Source: Minisyncoccota bacterium (GTDB taxonomy: Bacteria > Patescibacteriota > Minisyncoccia > UBA6257 > JAAZHW01). Taken from it: a DNA stretch of 64,000 bases. Shown here in pieces: positions 68-60,496 of the stretch (position 1 is its first letter; each line of letters starts with the position of its first letter). Location: positions 2,283 through 66,282 of the forward strand of contig DAOSMC010000001.1 in assembly GCA_035369485.1 (NCBI GenBank), written 5' to 3'. The notes beneath the pieces are model-generated. The model was given only the letters and a program-made list of their open reading frames with translations, had not been told where the DNA came from and made no database searches. Made by a program: the position numbers and the translations under genes.

Positions 68-101
68 ATGGGGCTGTTATGCTTTAGCATAACAGCCCCA
101 T
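68..101. repeat. Perfect hairpin H1 (15-bp stem) with conserved core TGTTATGCT-TTAG-AGCATAACA and outer arms GGGGC/GCCCC
   Basis: Left arm atggggctgttatgc at 68-82 pairs exactly with gcataacagccccat at 87-101. It shares its core with the hairpins at 208-235 and 357-411. Confidence 0.7.
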
Positions 102-2190: not shown

Positions 2191-2239
2191 AGAATTGAGG
2201 AAGTTGTGAGGCAAGCGAGTAAACAAAATGATGGAAAGG

Positions 2240-2284
2240 AAAGTGGCGGCGGAAAATTTCTTTGAAATTTTCCGCCGCCACTTT
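2240..2284. repeat. GC-stem palindromic element, copy A: perfect 21-bp stem, loop TTT, A-tract/T-tract flanks; putative bidirectional terminator
   Basis: aaagtggcggcggaaaatttc-ttt-gaaattttccgccgccacttt. Family consensus GGCGGCGG-AAAATTTC-TTT-GAAATTTT-CCGCCGCC. Lies downstream of the 715-2190 CDS. Confidence 0.75.
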
Positions 2285-2475
2285 CATTGTTTAAAATACG
2301 GGTAAAAAATTATCTGAATGATTGACGCAGTTAGAAGAGATCTTTTCTGGCTATCTTTATGAGAACAACAAAAATGAAAAATTTAATGTATAAAACCTCG
2401 ATTTTTTTATTTGCTTTTTGGTAATTATTTTGATACATTAAAAGAGATAGTTTAAATAATAAAAATCCAACTAAA

Positions 2476-4155: not shown

Positions 4156-4181
4156 AATTCAAATTGTGTAATGTATAATTG

Positions 4182-4226
4182 AAAAAGCGGCGGAAATTTT
4201 CTTTAAGAAAATTTCCGCCGCTTTTT
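4182..4226. repeat. GC-stem palindromic element, copy B: perfect 20-bp stem, A5/T5 flanks; putative terminator of the PilB-like gene
   Basis: aaaaagcggcggaaattttc-tttaa-gaaaatttccgccgcttttt. Confidence 0.75.
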
Positions 4227-4499
4227 CATCCGTCATCAAAATTATTTCATGAATTAATTCATGAAATAATAAACAATGAAAATGCTAATTTAGTATCAAT
4301 TCTTTTATTTTTTAAAAAAATTAAAATAGTGCATTGGTTTTGAAATTCAAGTTTTATTTTTGTCATTCGGAATGAAAGAAGTAGTTTTTAAAATTTGAAG
4401 TGATATAATATTTTTACTTGCGTTTAAAAAAAGCAGATTTATCTTGTTGTCAAAAAAATGAAGTTCAAATAATCGTGTCAGCTGTTTCTGTGTTTTTTA

Positions 4500-4745
4500 A
4501 GTTTTGTTTTAATAAAAAACAGCCCCTTCAACCCGGAGGCAATTTAATCTCGCAAAAAAGATGCGAGCTCAAGAATTTTTTAAGGCCTACCCGCTGACAG
4601 GCGAGTATGATAACCCAGTCGGAACCAGGTTACCCTTAAATAAATTCCCTATAGGCTTTAATTGGGTTGAAATAACGCCAATTGCCCCCAGGTTGAAAAG
4701 GCTGTTTCGGGTAACTATTTTTAAGAGAACAATAATCCTATAATG
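4500..4745. ncRNA. Candidate structured ncRNA of unknown class (GC-enriched island inside an 880-bp gene-free gap)
   Basis: GC content is clearly above the AT-rich surroundings. Local stems ctcgca/tgcgag at 4549-4567 and gctgttt/aaacagc at 4482-4517. No convincing ORF: the 60-aa track ORF at 4561-4743 is not protein-like. I could not recognise the family by eye. Confidence 0.25.
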
Positions 4746-4996
4746 ATATTATAGCACACCTAAAGATAAAAGTCAATAGTTTGACGGATATCGTAAAAAT
4801 GGTTAAATAACTAAAAATTAAAGAAGTAAAATGTATTATAGTGTTTAGTTATTTTAATGTCAAGAGGGGAGTTGGGGATAAGTTTAGCCCCCCAAAATTA
4901 TAAATTTTAGATTCTTCAATAAGGTAAATTACTGCTTTAATATTTTCCAAGCGTTATATTTATTATTAGAGTTGAAGATCAACTAATTTTTACACT

Positions 4997-5025
4997 TTGA
5001 CTTTTAAGATTTTGATTAATATAAT
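4997..5025 (+). promoter_or_regulatory. Near-consensus sigma70 promoter for ruvB: TTGACT - 17 nt - TATAAT, with the TSS about 6 nt before the ATG
   Basis: ttgact at 4997-5002, a 17-nt spacer, tataat at 5020-5025 and the start codon at 5038. Implies a leaderless or near-leaderless mRNA. Confidence 0.5.
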
Positions 5026-5037
5026 AAAAGTATTACC

Positions 5038-6106: not shown

Positions 6107-6143
6107 GGCGGCGGAAAATTTTCGAAGAAAATTTTCCGCCGGC
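6107..6143. repeat. GC-stem palindromic element, copy C: 15-bp perfect stem plus an imperfect extension
   Basis: ggcggcggaaaattttc-gaa-gaaaattttccgccggc. Sits between ruvB and the LTD gene. The ORF-track start at 6105 reads through it. Confidence 0.7.
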
Positions 6144-6182: not shown

Positions 6183-7520
6183 ATGTTTAAACATTATTTT
6201 TCTTTTCTTATAGTTGCCTTGAGCGTCTTGTTGTTTTTTCCTTTGGTTCAAGCACTGGCTGTGGGGCCGGTGATTATTAATGAAATAATGTATGATTTAC
6301 AAGGAACAGACACAGATCATGAGTGGGTAGAAATTAAAAATATTTCAGATCAAGCAGTTGATTTGAAAGATTGGCGTTTTTATGACGGGAGCAATCATTT
6401 ATTAAATGAACCTCCTCAAAATGGCGGGCAGGGCAGTTTAATTATTGCGCCTGGTGGTTATGCTGTTTTAGCTGACAAAGCAGATGTTTTTTTAGCTGAT
6501 CATCCGGGTTTTGGTGGGATCGTGATTGATACGGTGATGAGTTTGAATAATACTGAGGAAACCGTGCAACTTATTGATCAAAGCGGCAATAGTATTGAAA
6601 AAATAAACTATCAGAAGGAAATGGGTGGCAACGGCAATGGTTATTCGTTGGAGCGTACGGGTGATTTTTCGATGCAATTTTGTGAATCTAATCAATTAGG
6701 AGGTTCGCCCGGCCAAGCTAATAATTTTGATTGCAATAAATCCTCTTTTATGCCGACTCCTTCGTTGACAGCGATGAATACGCCTACGCTAATGATGGCA
6801 ACTGTTTCTCCTAGCGCTTCCCCCGAAACGATTTTAGAAGATACGATTATTGAAAGTGAAGATAATTTGTTGCGAACGACGCCCATTGCTTCTTCGCCAG
6901 TGATAAAAGTAAGCATTATTATTAATGAATTTTTACCTAATCCAACCGGTTCTGATACAGACAATGAGTGGATTGAATTATATAATAACAGCGATGTTAA
7001 AGTAGCGCTTACAGATTGGTGGATTGAAGATGCGAGCGGGCAGAAATATACTTTTAAAGATGAAGAAATAATGAGTCAGGGTTATTTAACCCTTCCTTAT
7101 TCCAAAACGAAAATTACTTTAAATAACAATGGTGAAACTTTGAGTTTATATTCACCTCGAGGAGAATTAGCTTTTAAAATTTCTTATTCGGGCAAAGCCA
7201 ACGAGGGTATGTCTTTTGCGCGAGCCGGCCAAAATGACTGGCGATGGACTTCAATTCTTACTCCTAATAAGCAGAATCAATTTTCAAGCGAATCATCGCA
7301 AAATACGGAATTAGCAATTCAACAGATGGATGAATCGGATGTTGCTGAAAATAATGCGCCTTCAACTGTTGATGCCGACTCTTCTTTAAAGCAGCAGACA
7401 GTAACGAGTTCGATATCAAACGCGTCAGATAAGATAATTATTGTTGCTATTGGATTGGGTTTAATATTAAGTGTAGTAGCAGCAATTTTTATTAAAAAGA
7501 TTTTACCGCCAGTTCATTGA
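6183..7520 (+). CDS. Lamin-tail-domain (LTD) surface protein with a signal/TM N-terminus, two LTD repeats and a C-terminal TM anchor
   Basis: Two copies of the LTD signature (VIINEIMYD..GTDTDHEWVEIKN and IIINEFLPNPTGSDTDNEWIELYN) and a C-terminal hydrophobic IIIVAIGLGLILSVVAAIFI. The start was moved to the ATG at 6183 because 6105-6143 is the palindrome. Confidence 0.6.
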   Translation: MFKHYFSFLIVALSVLLFFPLVQALAVGPVIINEIMYDLQGTDTDHEWVEIKNISDQAVDLKDWRFYDGSNHLLNEPPQNGGQGSLIIAPGGYAVLADKADVFLADHPGFGGIVIDTVMSLNNTEETVQLIDQSGNSIEKINYQKEMGGNGNGYSLERTGDFSMQFCESNQLGGSPGQANNFDCNKSSFMPTPSLTAMNTPTLMMATVSPSASPETILEDTIIESEDNLLRTTPIASSPVIKVSIIINEFLPNPTGSDTDNEWIELYNNSDVKVALTDWWIEDASGQKYTFKDEEIMSQGYLTLPYSKTKITLNNNGETLSLYSPRGELAFKISYSGKANEGMSFARAGQNDWRWTSILTPNKQNQFSSESSQNTELAIQQMDESDVAENNAPSTVDADSSLKQQTVTSSISNASDKIIIVAIGLGLILSVVAAIFIKKILPPVH

Positions 7521-7527
7521 TGAAATT

Positions 7528-10080
7528 TTATTTTAAATCCGCTAGAGTTTCTCCTGTGTAATACTGAGCTTTTAACGGCACGGAAAGAAATTCATTTTGC
7601 TCCATTAAAGGAAGGAGATTGTTTATTGTCCATTCAACTTTGTTTTCTTTGACTTCAAAAATTAGCTCATCATGAATTTGCAAAATGAGACGGATATCGT
7701 CAATTGCATTTTCTTTTTGAAGAAAGTCATTAATTTTGATCATTGCTTTTTTAATGATGTCGGCGGCTAATCCTTGAATAGGGAAGTTGATAGCAGCGCG
7801 TTCGGCAAGGCTGCGGTATTTTTGATTGCCAGAGATCAAATCCCAAACCCAGCGAATGCGGCCGCTTAAAGTTTTAACGCAGCCAGTTTGTCGTGCTTCG
7901 GCCAAAGTTTTTTCTCTCCAGTCTTTAATATTGGCAAAATCATGATAATATTCTTCAATGAATTTTTTAGCTTGATCTTTTGGTATTTGAGCAGTTTCGC
8001 TAAATGCTTTAGCGCCCATCCCATAAAGAATGCCAAAATTTAATGTTTTGGCTTGGCGGCGCATTGCAGGCGTAACTTGATCAAGGGTGGTGTTATTTAT
8101 TTCTGCCGCTGTTAGAGCATGGATATCTTGGTCATTAAGAAAAGCCTCTTTCATTTTGGGATCATCGGCCAAAGAAGCTGCAATACGTAATTCAATTTGA
8201 GAATAGTCAAAACCAACAAATTGGTAGCCTTTTTCAGCAACGAAACCTTGTCTAATTTTTTTTGCCAATTCTCCTTCTATCGGAATATTTTGAAGATTGG
8301 GATTTTCTGAAGAGAGGCGACCAGTTGCTGTACCTGTTTGATTATAAGTGGTATGAATACGGCAATTTTCATCCATTAAAGATGGCAACGGTTCTAAATA
8401 AGTGCTTTTGAGTTTCATTAATTCGCGATATTGAAGAATTTTAGCGATAGCCGGATGGAGATCTTTAATTTTGATGAGTTCATTTTCACGAGTAGATAAA
8501 AGCCCAGTGGCAGTTTTAGAAAGATGTTTGTTGTTCAAATTAAGTTTTTGGAAAATTACTTGAGAAAGTTGTTTGGGGGAATTAATATTAAACTCCGAAT
8601 TCGTTAGCTCAAAAATCTCTTTTTCTAATTTTTGTAATTCGTGATTTAATTCATCGGTTAAGCGATAAAAATGATCCGGATTAATTTTAATGCCGAAATG
8701 CTCCATTTGCGCCAAAACATTAACGAGGGGCATTTCAATTTGTTGGAAGACATTTGTTAAAGCAAGCTCTTTGATTTTATTTACCTGCGCTGTTTTGATT
8801 TTTTTCAGGATTGTTAAAATATTATCGTTGGGAAGAGGGGTTTTGAAAATGATTTGCCAAATTCTTTGAAGGGAGTAATCTTTTAATTCAGAATTGATGA
8901 GCCATTGAGCAATTTTAATATCATGGTTTAAGTTGAGATTGTAATCATCAATTTGTTTTACAATATTTTTTAAATCATAACCCACGAGAGAAAATTGTTT
9001 AATTTTATTAAAGGAATTTTGATCTTTAGGTAAAGAAAAAAATTGATCGGCTACTAATAATTCTACATTCTTATTGAGATTAATAATGGCTTCGGCTTGA
9101 GTTGGCAGAGGATTTAATTTTTGTTCTGTTTGCCATTGAATAGAGGCTTGAGAGAAAGCGTTCTCTGGCGTATTGGTTTGGGACTCTTCGGGCATTAATT
9201 GATTTACAAGACTTTCAAATCGCCATTTTTTAAAAAGAGGAATGAGTGATTCTTTGTTAATGCCATTAAATTTTAAATCAGAAAGTTTTACTTCTAAAGG
9301 AGCATTGCAATTTAGAGTTGTTAAGTATTTACTAAAAAATGCTTGCTCTTTTTGATCTAAGAGCGCAGCTAAAGTTTTTGGTTTAATTAAGCGCGCTTCA
9401 GAAGTTTTCTGAAAATTTTCATTTTCAATTTTTTGGTAAAGGTTTTCTAAGGTTTCAAAATGTTTAATTAATTCAATAGCTGTTTTTTCTCCAATTCCTT
9501 TGACGCCCAAAATATTATCAGAAGGATCGCCTTTTAACGCCTTAAAATCAATTAACTGTTTAGGACTAAGGCCATAGCGTTCCTGTACTTCCTTTTCATT
9601 ATAAATAACGGTGTCTTGAATTCCTTTTTTCATTGTGTAAACCACTACTTTATCATCGTCTACTAATTGAAGAGTGTCCAGATCACCAGTGAGAATAATA
9701 ATTTTTAAATCTTTTTCGTTAGAGAATTTTTTGACAAGCGTGCCGATGAGATCATCGGCCTCATAACCGGGAATTTCGAAATATTTAATAGGAACGGCAC
9801 TAAAAAACTCTCTTACTTTATCAAACTGAGGAATAAGATTTTCATCAGTTTTTGGGCGAGTGGCTTTATATTCTTTATATTCTTTATGCCTAAAAGTAGG
9901 TTCGGCCAAATCGAAGCATGCCGCGAGATAATCAGGTTTAAATTCGCGGATAATTTTTAAAATAATGCGAATAGTGCCATACACTGCGCCAATAGGTTCA
10001 CCTTTAGGAGTGGTTAAATTTGGCAAAGCATGAAAGCAGCGATGGATTAACGCATGAGAATCAATAAGGATAAGAGTCAT
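7528..10080 (-). CDS. polA: DNA polymerase I
   Basis: N-terminal 5'-3' exonuclease (LILIDSHALIHRCFHA) and a C-terminal family A polymerase with motifs RRQAKTLNFGILYGMGA and LQIHDELIFE. The start was trimmed to the ATG at 10080 because the track start at 10098 is TTG. Confidence 0.85.
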   Translation of the reverse strand: MTLILIDSHALIHRCFHALPNLTTPKGEPIGAVYGTIRIILKIIREFKPDYLAACFDLAEPTFRHKEYKEYKATRPKTDENLIPQFDKVREFFSAVPIKYFEIPGYEADDLIGTLVKKFSNEKDLKIIILTGDLDTLQLVDDDKVVVYTMKKGIQDTVIYNEKEVQERYGLSPKQLIDFKALKGDPSDNILGVKGIGEKTAIELIKHFETLENLYQKIENENFQKTSEARLIKPKTLAALLDQKEQAFFSKYLTTLNCNAPLEVKLSDLKFNGINKESLIPLFKKWRFESLVNQLMPEESQTNTPENAFSQASIQWQTEQKLNPLPTQAEAIINLNKNVELLVADQFFSLPKDQNSFNKIKQFSLVGYDLKNIVKQIDDYNLNLNHDIKIAQWLINSELKDYSLQRIWQIIFKTPLPNDNILTILKKIKTAQVNKIKELALTNVFQQIEMPLVNVLAQMEHFGIKINPDHFYRLTDELNHELQKLEKEIFELTNSEFNINSPKQLSQVIFQKLNLNNKHLSKTATGLLSTRENELIKIKDLHPAIAKILQYRELMKLKSTYLEPLPSLMDENCRIHTTYNQTGTATGRLSSENPNLQNIPIEGELAKKIRQGFVAEKGYQFVGFDYSQIELRIAASLADDPKMKEAFLNDQDIHALTAAEINNTTLDQVTPAMRRQAKTLNFGILYGMGAKAFSETAQIPKDQAKKFIEEYYHDFANIKDWREKTLAEARQTGCVKTLSGRIRWVWDLISGNQKYRSLAERAAINFPIQGLAADIIKKAMIKINDFLQKENAIDDIRLILQIHDELIFEVKENKVEWTINNLLPLMEQNEFLSVPLKAQYYTGETLADLK

Positions 10081-10119: not shown

Positions 10120-10626
10120 TTATTTAAGTTTTTTAGTTTTGGGTTGGGATTTTATTTTTGAATTTTCAACTTTTGAATTAATTGTTATTTCTCTCTTATT
10201 TTTATCAACGACTTTGAAATTGATCCACAGAGTATTTTTTGGAAGTAGCTTTTTAATACGTTCTGGCCACTCAATAAAAACGAGATTTTTTGGATCCTGA
10301 ATAATTTTTTTAAAATCAAGAGTAAGAATTTCCTCCGCTTTTTCCAGACGATAACAATCAATATGGTAAAAATTTTTAAAATGGGGATTTTTTCGTAATG
10401 AAAAAGATTTAATGATTAAAAATGTGGGGCTTAAAATTCTGCCTTTGATTTTTAGAGATTTGCCTACGCCTTGAATAAAGGTGGTTTTGCCAGCGCCCAA
10501 ATTACCCTGTAGAGCAAAAATATGAGGTGGTGAAGATTTTTGGTCCAGTAGTGTTTTTACAAGAATTTGAGCAATTTTTTGAGTTTGGACTGGTGAATGA
10601 GAAAGAATTTTTAGGGAAGATTGCAT
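10120..10626 (-). CDS. tsaE: tRNA t6A37 biosynthesis ATPase TsaE (YjeE family)
   Basis: P-loop GNLGAGKTTF within a protein of about 169 aa. The track N-terminus (10627-10731) translates the palindrome, so the start is placed at the ATG at 10626. Confidence 0.55.
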   Translation of the reverse strand: MQSSLKILSHSPVQTQKIAQILVKTLLDQKSSPPHIFALQGNLGAGKTTFIQGVGKSLKIKGRILSPTFLIIKSFSLRKNPHFKNFYHIDCYRLEKAEEILTLDFKKIIQDPKNLVFIEWPERIKKLLPKNTLWINFKVVDKNKREITINSKVENSKIKSQPKTKKLK

Positions 10627-10670
10627 TAAAGAAATTATACAATAAAAAGTTAAAAAACAAAATGACGAAA

Positions 10671-10723
10671 GGCGAAAGGGGCGGCGGAAAATTTCTTTGA
10701 AATTTTCCGCCGCCCCTTTCGCC
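10671..10723. repeat. GC-stem palindromic element, copy D: perfect 25-bp stem, located between the divergent starts of tsaE (-) and murA (+)
   Basis: ggcgaaaggggcggcggaaaatttc-ttt-gaaattttccgccgcccctttcgcc. Not in a terminator position. Confidence 0.75.
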
Positions 10724-10795
10724 TGTCGCAAATCGTTTTCAAATACCTATTTTTTTAATTTGCTTTTTTCTTTATTTTGTCTTAAATTAGAATTG

Positions 10796-12076
10796 ATGAG
10801 TCATTTTTTTGAAATTGAAGGAAGTAAAAAATTAAAAGGAGAAATTAAAGTATCAGGCACAAAAAATGGCGCACTGGCTATTTTACCAGCCTGTCTTTTA
10901 ACCGAGGAGCCTTGTGTGATTAAAAATATTCCGCTGCTTACTGACGTTTTAGTGATGGTTGATATTCTAAAGAATTTAGGGGCGGAAATAGAATGGTTAG
11001 ATGAAAGAACAATTCGTATTCAAGCAAAAAATGTTTTAAGTGATGCTGATACGAAATTAGTAAGAAAAATTAGAGCATCGTTTTTAGTGGCTGGTCCTAT
11101 TTTAGCGCGGATAGGCGAATTAAAAATTGCAAAACCCGGCGGTTGTCATATTGGCGCGCGCAGTTTAGATACGCATTTTGAGGGTTTTGCTGATTTGGGT
11201 GTTAAATCAGCTTTAGAAAGAGAAGAATCTGAAAAATATTATTTAAAAGCTCCAAAACAATTTAAACCAGCCATTGTTTCTTTAAATGAATTTAGCGTGA
11301 CAGCAACGGAAAATCTAATGATGTTAATGGCGAAGATTGAAGGAAAAAGCGAAATCCATTTAGCAGCTGCTGAACCGCATGTTCAAGAATTAGGCGAATT
11401 TTTAAAATCAATGGGCGCTGAGATTGAAGGATTGGGAACACATACCATTATTATTAAAGGCAAGCAAAAATTGAAAGGCGCAGAACATACCATTTGGCCT
11501 GATTATATTGAAGCGGGGACTTTTTTTAGTTTAGCTGCTACAACTAAAAGTAATCTTACTATTACCAATGTACCTGTTGCTTATTTAGAAATGGTCTTTC
11601 GTAAGTTGAAAAAAATGGGAGTTTCGTATAGAATAAAAGACAGCCAGGTTTTAATTGAGGGCAAAGATAGTTCTTTGAAAGCAGCCAAAATTCAAACATT
11701 ACCGTATCCAGGATTTCCAACTGATCTTCAAGCTCCTTTCGCGGTTTTAGCTACTCAAGCTAAAGGTGACAGTTTAATTTTTGATACATTATTTGAAGGC
11801 AGATTTAAATATGTTGATGAGTTAAATCAAATGGGAGCAAAAATTTTTCTTTGCGATCCGCACCGTATTCTTGTATCAGGTCCGACGCCGCTTTATGGAA
11901 CAAAAATCAAAAGTTTTGATTTACGTTCAGGAGCCACGCTGATTATTGCTGCCTTAGCGGCTCGGGGAAAAAGTCAGCTTCTAGGCATTGAAGAAGTAGA
12001 CCGCGGTTATGAAAAAATTGAAGAGCGGCTGCAAAAAATTGGTGCGAATATAAAACGAGTCGAGGCAGAATCATAA
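10796..12076 (+). CDS. murA: UDP-N-acetylglucosamine 1-carboxyvinyltransferase
   Basis: EPSP-synthase/MurA fold: KLKGEIKVSGTKNGALAILPACLL, a catalytic Cys loop region, and C-terminal LRSGATLIIAALAARG and VDRGYEKIEERL. The start was moved to the ATG at 10796, downstream of the palindrome. Confidence 0.8.
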   Translation: MSHFFEIEGSKKLKGEIKVSGTKNGALAILPACLLTEEPCVIKNIPLLTDVLVMVDILKNLGAEIEWLDERTIRIQAKNVLSDADTKLVRKIRASFLVAGPILARIGELKIAKPGGCHIGARSLDTHFEGFADLGVKSALEREESEKYYLKAPKQFKPAIVSLNEFSVTATENLMMLMAKIEGKSEIHLAAAEPHVQELGEFLKSMGAEIEGLGTHTIIIKGKQKLKGAEHTIWPDYIEAGTFFSLAATTKSNLTITNVPVAYLEMVFRKLKKMGVSYRIKDSQVLIEGKDSSLKAAKIQTLPYPGFPTDLQAPFAVLATQAKGDSLIFDTLFEGRFKYVDELNQMGAKIFLCDPHRILVSGPTPLYGTKIKSFDLRSGATLIIAALAARGKSQLLGIEEVDRGYEKIEERLQKIGANIKRVEAES

Positions 12077-13864: not shown

Positions 13865-14030
13865 CATGGGATCCTTCGGGCGTTACCCTCAGGATGACGT
13901 AAGAAGCGAAAGCCGAAGGATCCTTCGGACTAAAACCCTCAGGATGACAATGTATTGGTTTGTCATTCTGAGTGAAACCTGCCTGCCGGTTAGGTAGGTG
14001 AAGAATCTCATACTCAGCAGTGATGGTTAA
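13865..14030. other. Structured repeat-rich intergenic element: two direct copies of GGATCCTTCGG...ACCCTCAGGATGAC, each with a nearby complement
   Basis: 13868-13878 ggatccttcgg pairs with 13912-13922 ccgaaggatcc. 13912-13927 is a perfect 16-nt palindrome. ctcaggatgac at 13939-13949 pairs with gtcattctgag at 13962-13972. GC is above background. Confidence 0.4.
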
Positions 14031-14035
14031 TAAGG

Positions 14036-14068
14036 CGGCGGCGAATTTCTTTTAGAAATTCGCCGCCG
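14036..14068. repeat. GC-stem palindromic element, copy E: 15-bp stem, loop TTT
   Basis: cggcggcgaatttct-ttt-agaaattcgccgccg, between holB and frr. Confidence 0.65.
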
Positions 14069-21471: not shown

Positions 21472-21624
21472 TTAATGTCTTAATCGATATCTTAAATTTT
21501 AAAATCTAACCTCAAATAATTTTAAAGGCATTAAAAATTATAAAATTATTTCGGTGATGCTTTTAGAATAACAATTGGATTGAAAGCCGCGGGATTCATC
21601 TATTAGATTTTGTTTTTGGATGCT

Positions 21625-21662
21625 GCGCGGTGGCGATTTTCTTTAGAAAATCGCCACCGCGC
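21625..21662. repeat. GC-stem palindromic element, copy F: perfect 17-bp stem, loop TTTA (variant GCGCGGTGGCG)
   Basis: gcgcggtggcgattttc-ttta-gaaaatcgccaccgcgc, between mrdA and greA. Confidence 0.7.
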
Positions 21663-21705
21663 CGCTTCATCTCTAGTCGTTTATTACTTTTAGATTTAAT
21701 ATTTC

Positions 21706-25718: not shown

Positions 25719-25754
25719 ATTGAAAGATTAGAGTGATAAAGATAGGGTTTTTAA

Positions 25755-25793
25755 GGGGCGACGAAAATTTTCTTTGAAAATTTTCGTCGCCCC
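25755..25793. repeat. GC-stem palindromic element, copy G: perfect 18-bp stem, between convergent genes
   Basis: ggggcgacgaaaattttc-ttt-gaaaattttcgtcgcccc. Confidence 0.7.
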
Positions 25794-25804
25794 GTCCGTC
25801 GCAT

Positions 25805-47493: not shown

Positions 47494-47566
47494 GGAGGAA
47501 ACAAATAAATGCCGGGTATGCTCTTTAGAGCCAGCAATGATTCTAAAGAGTTCCTCCCCGGCATTT
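47494..47566 (+). promoter_or_regulatory. Nested hairpin between rpsJ and rplC that sequesters a GGAGG; candidate attenuator/terminator or r-protein autoregulatory site
   Basis: ggaggaa at 47494-47500 pairs with ttcctcc at 47551-47557. Outer stem aaatgccggg at 47507-16 pairs with cccggcattt at 47557-66. Inner stem ctctttaga/tctaaagag. Followed by a T-rich tract (tttattta). Confidence 0.4.
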
Positions 47567-47618
47567 ATTTATCTAAAATATTGATAAAAAATAATTTATT
47601 TTTAAAATATCAGACAAT

Positions 47619-60343: not shown

Positions 60344-60373
60344 CAACCGCTTCGGAATGGGGCGGTTTTTTTA
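60344..60373 (+). terminator. Rho-independent terminator (GC stem accgc...gcggt followed by T8)
   Basis: aaccgcttcggaatggggcggttttttt. Confidence 0.5.
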
Positions 60374-60496
60374 TAATATTAAGAATAAATCGAATAAAAA
60401 ACCAAAGAAGCATTTTTAGGAAGCTCTATTTTTTATTGCCGTTTTTAGTCAGCGTTGACTTTTGTGTTTTTAATTTTAAGTTTATAATATATTCAT

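What the first reader, a model, noticed from the sequence alone, without database searches (positions are those of the whole stretch)
10671..10723. 25-bp perfect palindrome in the divergent tsaE/murA promoter region
This is the longest copy of the palindrome family. It lies between two gene starts that face away from each other: the tsaE ATG at 10626 on the minus strand and the murA ATG at 10796 on the plus strand. A hairpin or cruciform here could act as a shared operator, a transcriptional insulator against read-in, or simply an inserted mobile palindrome. It is the clearest evidence that the family is not purely terminator-driven.
Basis: partly seen in the sequence, partly recalled or inferred. 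Interest (0 to 1): 0.5.

Follow-up and report, generated by a model that had tools for sequence, protein, structure and literature searches.

The report
Inserted hairpin repeat between tsaE and murA
A long, perfectly symmetrical DNA hairpin sits between two outward-facing genes of an uncultured Patescibacteria genome; it is one copy of a lineage-specific family of intergenic hairpin repeats, was inserted between two intact promoters, and most likely marks a boundary between transcription units rather than acting as a gene-specific switch.

Summary
The palindrome is real and slightly longer than reported. Its perfect arms are 26 bp (10670-10695 / 10699-10724) around a TTT loop, and 29 of 30 positions pair over 10666-10728. 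No shuffle gave an arm above 13 bp. It lies between the tsaE ATG (10626, minus) and the murA ATG (10796, plus) and is the longest of seven family copies, all in the first 26 kb.

The family shares a GC clamp, an A/T centre and a 3-nt loop. It recurs in 65 metagenome contigs. Relatives with 78-84% MurA identity have a compact 68-73 bp tsaE|murA gap with the same promoter modules and no hairpin. The element is therefore a derived foldback insertion of about 95 bp, upstream of both compact leaderless-type promoters.

A 99.5%-identical strain carries a compensatory G:C to A:T change in this copy. Loop flips (TTT to AAA) are common in the family. Stems are 99.4% Watson-Crick with almost no G·T. Hairpin cores diverge about three times more slowly than coding sequence.

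Family members occur in divergent, convergent and tandem gaps at similar rates and have no directional T tract. A canonical terminator and a shared operator are both poorly supported. The best reading is a strand-symmetric hairpin boundary element kept symmetrical by template switching. The main rival is a neutral REP/MITE-like repeat. Interest is modest.

The parts
10670..10695 (.). Left arm of the perfect 26-bp palindrome (AGGCGAAAGGGGCGGCGGAAAATTTC)
10696..10698 (.). 3-nt central spacer or loop, TTT
   Evidence: TTT and AAA are the commonest family loops.
10699..10724 (.). Right arm of the perfect palindrome
10666..10728 (.). Extended hairpin with 29 of 30 positions paired. The one mismatch is 10669/10725.
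10651..10744 (.). Approximate full quasi-palindromic foldback. It matches the roughly 95-100 bp that is extra relative to the compact gap of relatives. The boundaries are approximate.
10683..10683 (.). Position changed G to A in the 99.5%-identical strain L128. It pairs with 10711, which changed C to T, so the change is compensatory.
10634..10639 (-). Inferred tsaE -10 box, TATAAT, 7 nt before the ATG (leaderless-type). A -10 box 9-10 nt before the ATG is also present in L092, L165 and L159.
   Evidence: Sequence and comparison. This is an inference, not mapped.
10760..10788 (+). Inferred murA promoter, TTGCTT-17-TAAATT, 7 nt before the ATG. The same architecture in L092 is TTGTAT-17-TTAAAT-7-ATG.
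   Evidence: This is an inference.
10120..10626 (-). tsaE coding sequence
10796..12076 (+). murA coding sequence
2236..2288 (.). Family copy and closest paralog. It also shares the left flank AACAAAATGAYG.
4180..4228 (.). Family copy with 24-bp perfect arms and A5/T5 flanks
6107..6143 (.). Family copy between ruvB and the LTD-domain gene
14036..14068 (.). Family copy in the holB-frr gap
21622..21665 (.). Family-like copy in the PBP2-greA gap
25753..25795 (.). Family copy in a convergent gap

Best explanation
The element is one copy, the longest, of a lineage-specific family of strand-symmetric hairpin repeats in a Patescibacteria (Paceibacteria-type) genome. The family design is a GC clamp (GGCGGCGG), an A/T-rich centre (AAAATTTC), a 3-nt loop and perfect Watson-Crick arms. 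At this locus it is a derived foldback insertion of about 95 bp. It landed in an ancestrally compact, back-to-back promoter region, upstream of both short leaderless-type promoters, and belongs to neither. I infer that it works as a boundary element between transcription units. Because it folds equally on either strand, it would stop or process transcripts that read in from either side. One candidate is the plus-strand ruvB/LTD transcript, which meets polA head-on across a 7-bp gap with no hairpin and would otherwise run antisense through polA-tsaE into murA. Another is antisense RNA from murA heading into tsaE, the side that carries a T-rich tail. Its perfect symmetry is maintained by arm-to-arm copying (replication template switching) together with selection for the hairpin. 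Shown: the element's existence, its family membership, its derived state, hairpin-preserving evolution and slow core divergence. Inferred: the promoters, the barrier function and the mechanism of symmetry maintenance.
For: Family and design: seven copies in the window, 65 metagenome loci and 45 distinct hairpins with 819 of 824 Watson-Crick pairs and only 2 G·T.

Derived insertion: the tsaE|murA gap is 68-73 bp with no hairpin in L092, L165 and L159, yet the flanking promoter modules align with the window.

Hairpin-preserving evolution: between 99.5%-identical strains, only 3 non-coding differences fall outside one hypervariable gap. Two of them are the paired positions 10683 and 10711. The chance expectation for that is of order 1e-4, by my estimate from the rates. 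Loop flips and multi-pair compensatory changes occur between orthologous copies. These are the signatures described for template switching in PMC8794818.

Constraint: against the 91%-identical L101, hairpin cores show 5 of 146 differences, three of which are one loop flip. Coding and other intergenic DNA both show 9.5%.

Boundary logic: in the first 26 kb every operon-sized block is delimited by one copy, 40-190 nt upstream of the next plus-strand start in most cases. The LTD/polA convergent junction has no hairpin. In tandem gaps, copies sit nearer the upstream stop (median 65 nt) than the next start (145 nt). Strict Watson-Crick symmetry fits a need to fold on both strands.
Against: There are no transcript data. 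The family has no directional T tract after the stem (3.8 against 4.1 T per 10 nt, background about 3.2). The terminator scan flags only the 2239-2285 copy. Termination would therefore have to be non-canonical, or the role could be RNA processing or stabilisation instead. Relatives manage without any hairpin at this site. There are no copies in the remaining 38 kb of the window, although operon boundaries exist there. Slow core divergence and paired changes could also come from copy-to-copy or arm-to-arm conversion without selection. The context statistics rest on crude ORF calls and on loci chosen for containing the motif.
Confidence: 0.45

Rival explanations
1. The element is a selfish or neutral foldback repeat. 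It could be a REP/MITE-like element, or a palindrome created and perfected by replication template switching. It landed in a permissive spot between two compact promoters and has no function there.
For: Presence or absence differs across relatives at this and other orthologous gaps. The tsaE|murA gap is an insertion hotspot. It holds nothing, this palindrome, other repeats plus a different palindrome, a 384-aa gene, or two small ORFs, depending on the lineage. Copies 2236 and 10666 share sequence beyond the palindrome. Occupancy is independent of gene orientation. Loop flips and one-step compensatory changes are DNA-level events.
Against: No transposase was found in the window (Pfam lists). 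No target-site duplication or GTAG motif is evident. Outer arms differ between copies, unlike a recent burst of one element. Cores diverge about three times more slowly than coding sequence. Copies are positioned close to stop codons in tandem gaps.
Confidence: 0.3
2. The element is a leftover or dedicated terminator. It would be the 3' hairpin of a small gene, ncRNA or cassette that once lay, or still lies unannotated, between tsaE and murA.
For: In L006 two small plus-strand ORFs between tsaE and murA end in a canonical terminator just upstream of murA. In L164/L088 an inserted 384-aa gene ends in a GC-rich palindrome about 25 nt after its stop and about 95 nt before murA. The minus-strand side of this copy has a T-rich tail, TCATTTTGTTTTTT.
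Against: Only 39 nt and 67 nt flank the hairpin, which leaves no room for a gene. The extra DNA relative to the empty site is essentially the quasi-palindrome itself. The mini-ORF reading into the hairpin is not frame-conserved in the paralog. There is no Rfam family above threshold. The palindromes in L006 and L164 are not homologous in sequence to this one.
Confidence: 0.12
3. The element is a shared operator or cruciform regulator of the divergent tsaE and murA promoters. It would act through protein binding or by absorbing transcription-driven negative supercoils.
For: It sits centrally between divergent promoters. The AT-rich centre, GC-rich arms and 3-nt loop are favourable for cruciform extrusion (general knowledge). 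The core is conserved in the 91% relative.
Against: It lies upstream of both inferred promoters without overlapping them. It is absent in relatives that keep the same promoters. The same core occurs at many unrelated loci. At 63 bp it is far longer than a typical operator.
Confidence: 0.08
4. The palindrome is an assembly artefact.
For: Contigs of other assemblies often break at these palindromes (L002, L004, L086, L110).
Against: The same palindrome was recovered in at least five independent assemblies and samples, with evolutionary variants.
Confidence: 0.01

Closest known systems
REP/BIME elements (repetitive extragenic palindromes, RAYT-associated) of Proteobacteria
   Same: Both are multi-copy, GC-rich, hairpin-forming, strictly extragenic and lineage-specific. 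Both are often near gene 3' ends and turn over rapidly between relatives.
   Different: This family has no GTAG/CTAC tetranucleotide. Its arms are perfect rather than imperfect. Outer arms vary between copies. No RAYT gene is seen in the 64 kb available. It is frequent in divergent promoter gaps, where, by my recollection, E. coli BIMEs are not found.
Bidirectional intrinsic (Rho-independent) terminators
   Same: Both have a strong GC-based hairpin in intergenic DNA that is symmetric for both strands. Some copies (4180-4228) have A5/T5 flanks exactly like a bidirectional terminator.
   Different: Most copies, including this one on the plus strand, lack a U tract adjacent to the stem. The stems, at 15-30 bp, are much longer than usual. 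This copy follows no gene.
Chloroplast 3' inverted-repeat stem-loops
   Same: Both are hairpins without efficient termination signals that act as RNA 3'-end processing or stability elements. Minute inversions of the loop are a well-known feature of plastid hairpins (general knowledge).
   Different: The plastid elements are transcribed 3' UTR elements of specific genes, not a shared-sequence repeat family. No transcription data are available here.
Template-switch-generated and maintained hairpins (Mönttinen and Löytynoja 2022, PMC8794818)
   Same: One-step compensatory changes, loop inversions and perfect stems are all observed here between orthologous copies.
   Different: That work concerns rRNA and miRNA stems. 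Here the signature is in intergenic DNA hairpins of a bacterial repeat family.
MITE or foldback elements (for example Correia elements and RPEs)
   Same: The size is similar at about 95 bp, the structure is foldback, and presence or absence differs at orthologous sites.
   Different: No target-site duplication is detectable, no conserved terminal repeats are distinct from the stem, and no partner transposase is known.

Membership tests
Intrinsic (Rho-independent) terminator | Stable GC-rich stem-loop | tested here: met
   29 of 30 positions paired, -69.6 kcal/mol as RNA.
Intrinsic (Rho-independent) terminator | U/T tract immediately 3' of the stem | tested here: inconclusive
   On the plus strand there are 4 T in 10 nt. 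On the minus strand there are 7 T in 10 nt after the 30-bp stem. The consensus scan does not list this copy. Family-wide there is no directional enrichment (3.8 against 4.1).
Intrinsic (Rho-independent) terminator | Lies downstream of a transcription unit in sense orientation | tested here: not met
   It lies between two start codons, 39 nt and 67 nt away.
Intrinsic (Rho-independent) terminator | RNA 3' ends form at the site | not testable with these tools
   No transcript data are available.
REP/BIME | Multi-copy extragenic palindrome specific to a lineage | tested here: met
   the half-site GGCGGAAA occurs 8 times out of 10 inside the palindromes.
REP/BIME | Conserved GTAG/CTAC tetranucleotide at the hairpin foot | tested here: not met
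   Copies and flanks listed show no such motif.
REP/BIME | Cognate RAYT (Y1 transposase) gene in the genome | tested here: inconclusive
   None appears among the Pfam-annotated genes covering most of the window. The rest of the genome was not available.
MITE / foldback transposon | Filled and empty orthologous sites | tested here: met
   The gap is 169 bp here and 68-73 bp in L092, L165 and L159. These relatives are distant (78-84% MurA identity).
MITE / foldback transposon | Target-site duplication flanking the insertion | tested here: inconclusive
   None is evident. The empty-site relatives are too diverged to define the junctions.
Operator shared by divergent promoters | Overlaps or abuts core promoter elements and co-occurs with them in relatives | tested here: not met
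   It lies upstream of both inferred promoters. The promoters are conserved without it in L092, L165 and L159.
DNA uptake sequence pairs (DUS/USS-type terminators) | Half-site strongly over-represented as single copies, including in genes | tested here: not met
   half-sites are almost confined to the palindromes.
Template-switch-maintained hairpin | Simultaneous paired substitutions and loop inversions between close relatives | tested here: met
   The concept comes from PMC8794818.

The most novel reading that the evidence does not exclude
These GC-clamped, AT-centred, strictly Watson-Crick palindromes could be a previously undescribed DNA-level boundary element of Patescibacteria. They would act as cruciform or hairpin structures that insulate adjacent promoters or supercoiling domains independently of U tracts. 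Alternatively, they could be the substrate of an unrecognised hairpin-targeting mobility system. In either case they would propagate and stay perfect through arm-to-arm template switching.
Probability: 0.15. Interest if true: 0.6.

Novelty: new member of a known kind. Interest (0 to 1): 0.33.

Why it matters
Transcription-unit boundaries in Patescibacteria (CPR) are essentially unstudied. My two literature searches found nothing on terminators or palindromic repeats in this group. If these hairpins are the lineage's boundary elements, they give a sequence handle for predicting operons in very gene-dense, almost unidirectional genomes. They would also be a clean natural example of hairpins kept perfect by template switching. 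Practically, they break metagenome assemblies and generate spurious small ORFs. If they are merely neutral repeats, the finding is ordinary.

Tried and rejected
1. Mini-ORF or leader peptide reading into the hairpin (ATG at 10662, 12 codons). A similar ATG precedes copy 2236, but a 1-nt indel puts it in a different frame, so this is not coding.

2. Recent inversion of the polA-tsaE block that would have made the hairpin polA's terminator. The divergent tsaE|murA arrangement is conserved in relatives at 68-90% MurA identity (L006, L092, L159, L161, L165). GC skew also stays positive across the block.

3. DNA uptake sequence pairs. Half-sites are not found as singletons.

4. Known RNA families. 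Only sub-threshold miRNA-hairpin look-alikes were found.

5. tRNA or tmRNA in the gap. None was found.

6. Orthologous conservation among 80 GTDB representative genomes. The closest has 68% MurA identity and none carries the motif. Closer relatives had to be fetched through protein look-ups instead.

7. Covariation count on paralogs: 15 of 17 pairs change on both sides and none on one side only. The sequences were selected as palindromes, so this is descriptive and not independent evidence.

8. TIGR arrays as an explanation for the other hairpins in the window. The architecture in PMC12045711 does not match.

9. The L002 variant, with three single-arm changes. It lies at a low-quality contig end and was not used.

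Full report
**Observation**

The arms 10666-10695 and 10699-10728 are 30 nt long and 97% complementary around a TTT spacer. The uninterrupted perfect arm is 26 bp (10670-10695 / 10699-10724), and the only mismatch is 10669/10725. Thirty dinucleotide-preserving shuffles of the window never gave a perfect arm above 13 bp. The 169-nt gap folds far better than shuffles, with DNA z = -9.9 and RNA z = -10.2.

The flanking genes are tsaE (10120-10626, minus) and murA (10796-12076, plus). Beyond them lie polA on one side and mreB-holB on the other. The window comes from contig DAOLNW010000001.1 of MAG GCA_035416805.1. Its nearest named relatives are Patescibacteria of the Paceibacteria/Minisyncoccia type. 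The palindrome is present in several independent assemblies, so it is not an artefact.

**The family**

The window holds seven related palindromes: 2236, 4180, 6107, 10666, 14036, 21622 and 25753. All are intergenic and all lie in the first 26 kb. They share one design: a GC clamp (GGCGGCGG), an A/T run ending in C (AAAATTTC), a 3-nt loop, and the mirror image.

A pattern scan of metagenome contigs found 65 loci, mostly low-GC contigs from digester and sludge samples. Across 45 distinct hairpin sequences, 819 of 824 stem pairs are Watson-Crick and only 2 are G·T. Stems are mostly 15-20 bp, and loops are mostly TTT or AAA. This copy and its ortholog are the longest, at 30 pairs.

The half-site hardly ever occurs outside palindromes. 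A subgroup with GAT/ATC loops lies inside a conserved coding region in higher-GC contigs. I treated it as unrelated.

**Comparative evidence at this locus**

- A 99.5%-identical strain (L128) and a 91%-identical relative (L101) both carry the element at the same place.
- Relatives with 78%, 79% and 84% MurA identity (L092, L165, L159) keep the divergent tsaE|murA arrangement. Their gap is only 68-73 bp and has no hairpin.
- Their tsaE-proximal and murA-proximal sequences align with the window's flanks.
- From these alignments I infer compact promoters. For murA the pattern is TTGCTT-17-TAAATT-7-ATG, against TTGTAT-17-TTAAAT-7-ATG in L092. For tsaE a TATAAT box lies 7-10 nt before the ATG in the window and in L092, L165 and L159. 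Both genes are probably leaderless, and the hairpin lies upstream of both promoters.
- The extra 95-100 bp in the window is essentially one quasi-palindrome.
- Other lineages fill the same gap differently. The 90% group has 662 bp of GTCATCCTGAG-type repeats plus a different GC-clamped palindrome, or in addition a 384-aa gene followed by yet another palindrome. L006 has two small ORFs and a canonical terminator.

The gap is therefore an insertion-tolerant hotspot, and this element is a derived insertion. The other family copies in the window are likewise missing from the orthologous gaps of the 78-90% relatives.

**How the hairpin evolves**

Between the window and L128, coding divergence is 0.26%. 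Outside one hypervariable gap there are only three non-coding differences. Two of them are the paired positions 10683 (G to A) and 10711 (C to T) of this palindrome. By chance this is expected at roughly 1e-4.

Between other orthologous pairs I found repeated inversions of the loop: TTT/AAA, TGAAA/TTTCA and GAA/TTC. This includes copy 2236 against L101. I also found multi-pair compensatory changes and few single-arm changes. These are the signatures attributed to replication template switching (PMC8794818).

Against L101, the four hairpin cores differ at 5 of 146 positions, three of which are a single loop flip. Coding and other intergenic DNA both differ at 9.5%. In L101 the outer arms of this copy have decayed, while the 39-nt core differs at one position.

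The cores are therefore constrained or homogenised. The near absence of G·T pairs suggests that both strands, or the DNA itself, must fold.

**Tests of function**

Canonical terminator. The family shows no directional T tract: 3.8 T per 10 nt on the sense side and 4.1 on the antisense side, against a background of about 3.2. The consensus scan flags only copy 2239-2285. This copy follows no gene. Still, in tandem gaps the copies lie closer to the upstream stop (median 65 nt) than to the next start (145 nt; 19 of 29 cases). This copy also has a T-rich tail on the tsaE side.

Orientation. With crude ORF calls, family members occupy 9 of 41 divergent gaps, 6 of 24 convergent gaps and 41 of 232 tandem gaps. 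After removing duplicates there are six divergent cases, at least two of them clean (L097/L131, L125). The family is therefore not excluded from promoter-only gaps.

Operator. The element does not overlap the promoters, is absent where the promoters are conserved, and recurs behind unrelated genes.

Mobile element. There is no transposase among the Pfam-annotated genes across the window, no GTAG motif and no discernible target duplication. However, copies 2236 and 10666 share flank sequence.

**Interpretation**

The descriptive conclusion is secure: this is a derived, family-type, hairpin-preserving insertion between two intact promoters. For function I favour a strand-symmetric boundary element, at about 0.45.

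In the first 26 kb, each operon-sized block is separated from the next by one copy. The LTD gene and polA converge across 7 bp with no hairpin. The first strong plus-strand barrier after ruvB/LTD is therefore this palindrome, 67 nt before murA.

This is inference. The main rival, at about 0.3, is a neutral REP/MITE-like or template-switch-generated repeat sitting in a permissive site. A leftover terminator of a lost cassette (about 0.12) and a cruciform or operator role (about 0.08) remain possible.

**Novelty and interest**

Intergenic hairpin repeat families and terminator-like palindromes are commonplace in bacteria. This one is a new family in a poorly studied phylum, with tidy evidence for template-switch-type maintenance. 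It is not a new kind of system on present evidence. Interest is about 0.33.

Noticed in passing
window 68-101, 207-236, 360-403: There is a second hairpin family with a conserved apical core, GTTATGCT-WW-AGCATAAC, and variable but complementary outer stems. It recurs in many metagenome loci, including three copies at 73-bp spacing in L151 6157-6328. It has no convincing Rfam match and does not fit the TIGR array architecture.
   Followed up: partly
window 4241-4270: The AT-rich palindrome ATTATTTCATGAATTAATTCATGAAATAAT lies 13 nt after family copy 4180-4228. The same TCATGAATTAATTCATGA core sits next to GC-clamped palindromes in more than 15 metagenome loci, sometimes as 12-bp tandem units. 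It looks like a protein-binding site.
   Followed up: no
window 4290-5037: This is an 880-bp gene-free gap with two near-consensus minus-strand promoters (4863-4835 and 4776-4748) and a GC-richer stretch at about 4510-4745. It holds 27 of the 30 non-coding differences between 99.5%-identical strains. It has no Rfam hit. It may be an unannotated ncRNA or a fast-evolving element.
   Followed up: partly
window 13880-13975; L161 5400-5800: GTCATCCTGAG / CTCAGGATGAC repeats lie in the holB-frr gap. The same repeat type fills the tsaE-murA gap of the 90%-MurA relatives and appears beside family palindromes in several metagenome loci. This is another dispersed repeat family.
   Followed up: no
window 7520-7528: The LTD-domain gene (plus) and polA (minus) converge across a 7-bp gap with no hairpin. 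This implies overlapping antisense read-through unless a factor terminates it.
   Followed up: no
window 26000-64000: There are no family palindromes in the last 38 kb, although intergenic gaps exist there. Two different, canonical-looking terminators occur at about 47503-47572 and 60345-60375.
   Followed up: no
L164 3618-3658; L163 4816-4856: In the 90%-MurA relatives, a 20-bp perfect palindrome, GAAGCTGAGGAAAATTTTC..GAAAATTTTCCTCAGCTTC, sits at the tsaE-polA junction. The window has none there. Hairpins turn over at every junction in this clade.
   Followed up: no
L094, L108, L114, L136, L141, L143, L148, L155: A near-identical palindrome with a GAT/ATC centre (GGCGGAAAATTTTATCAAAATTTTCCGCC) lies inside a long ORF in higher-GC contigs and is conserved at 72-80% locus identity. 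It is probably a coding-sequence coincidence. The gene was not identified.
   Followed up: no
L002, L004, L086, L110, L135: Contigs from other assemblies start or end at these palindromes. The repeats appear to fragment short-read assemblies.
   Followed up: no
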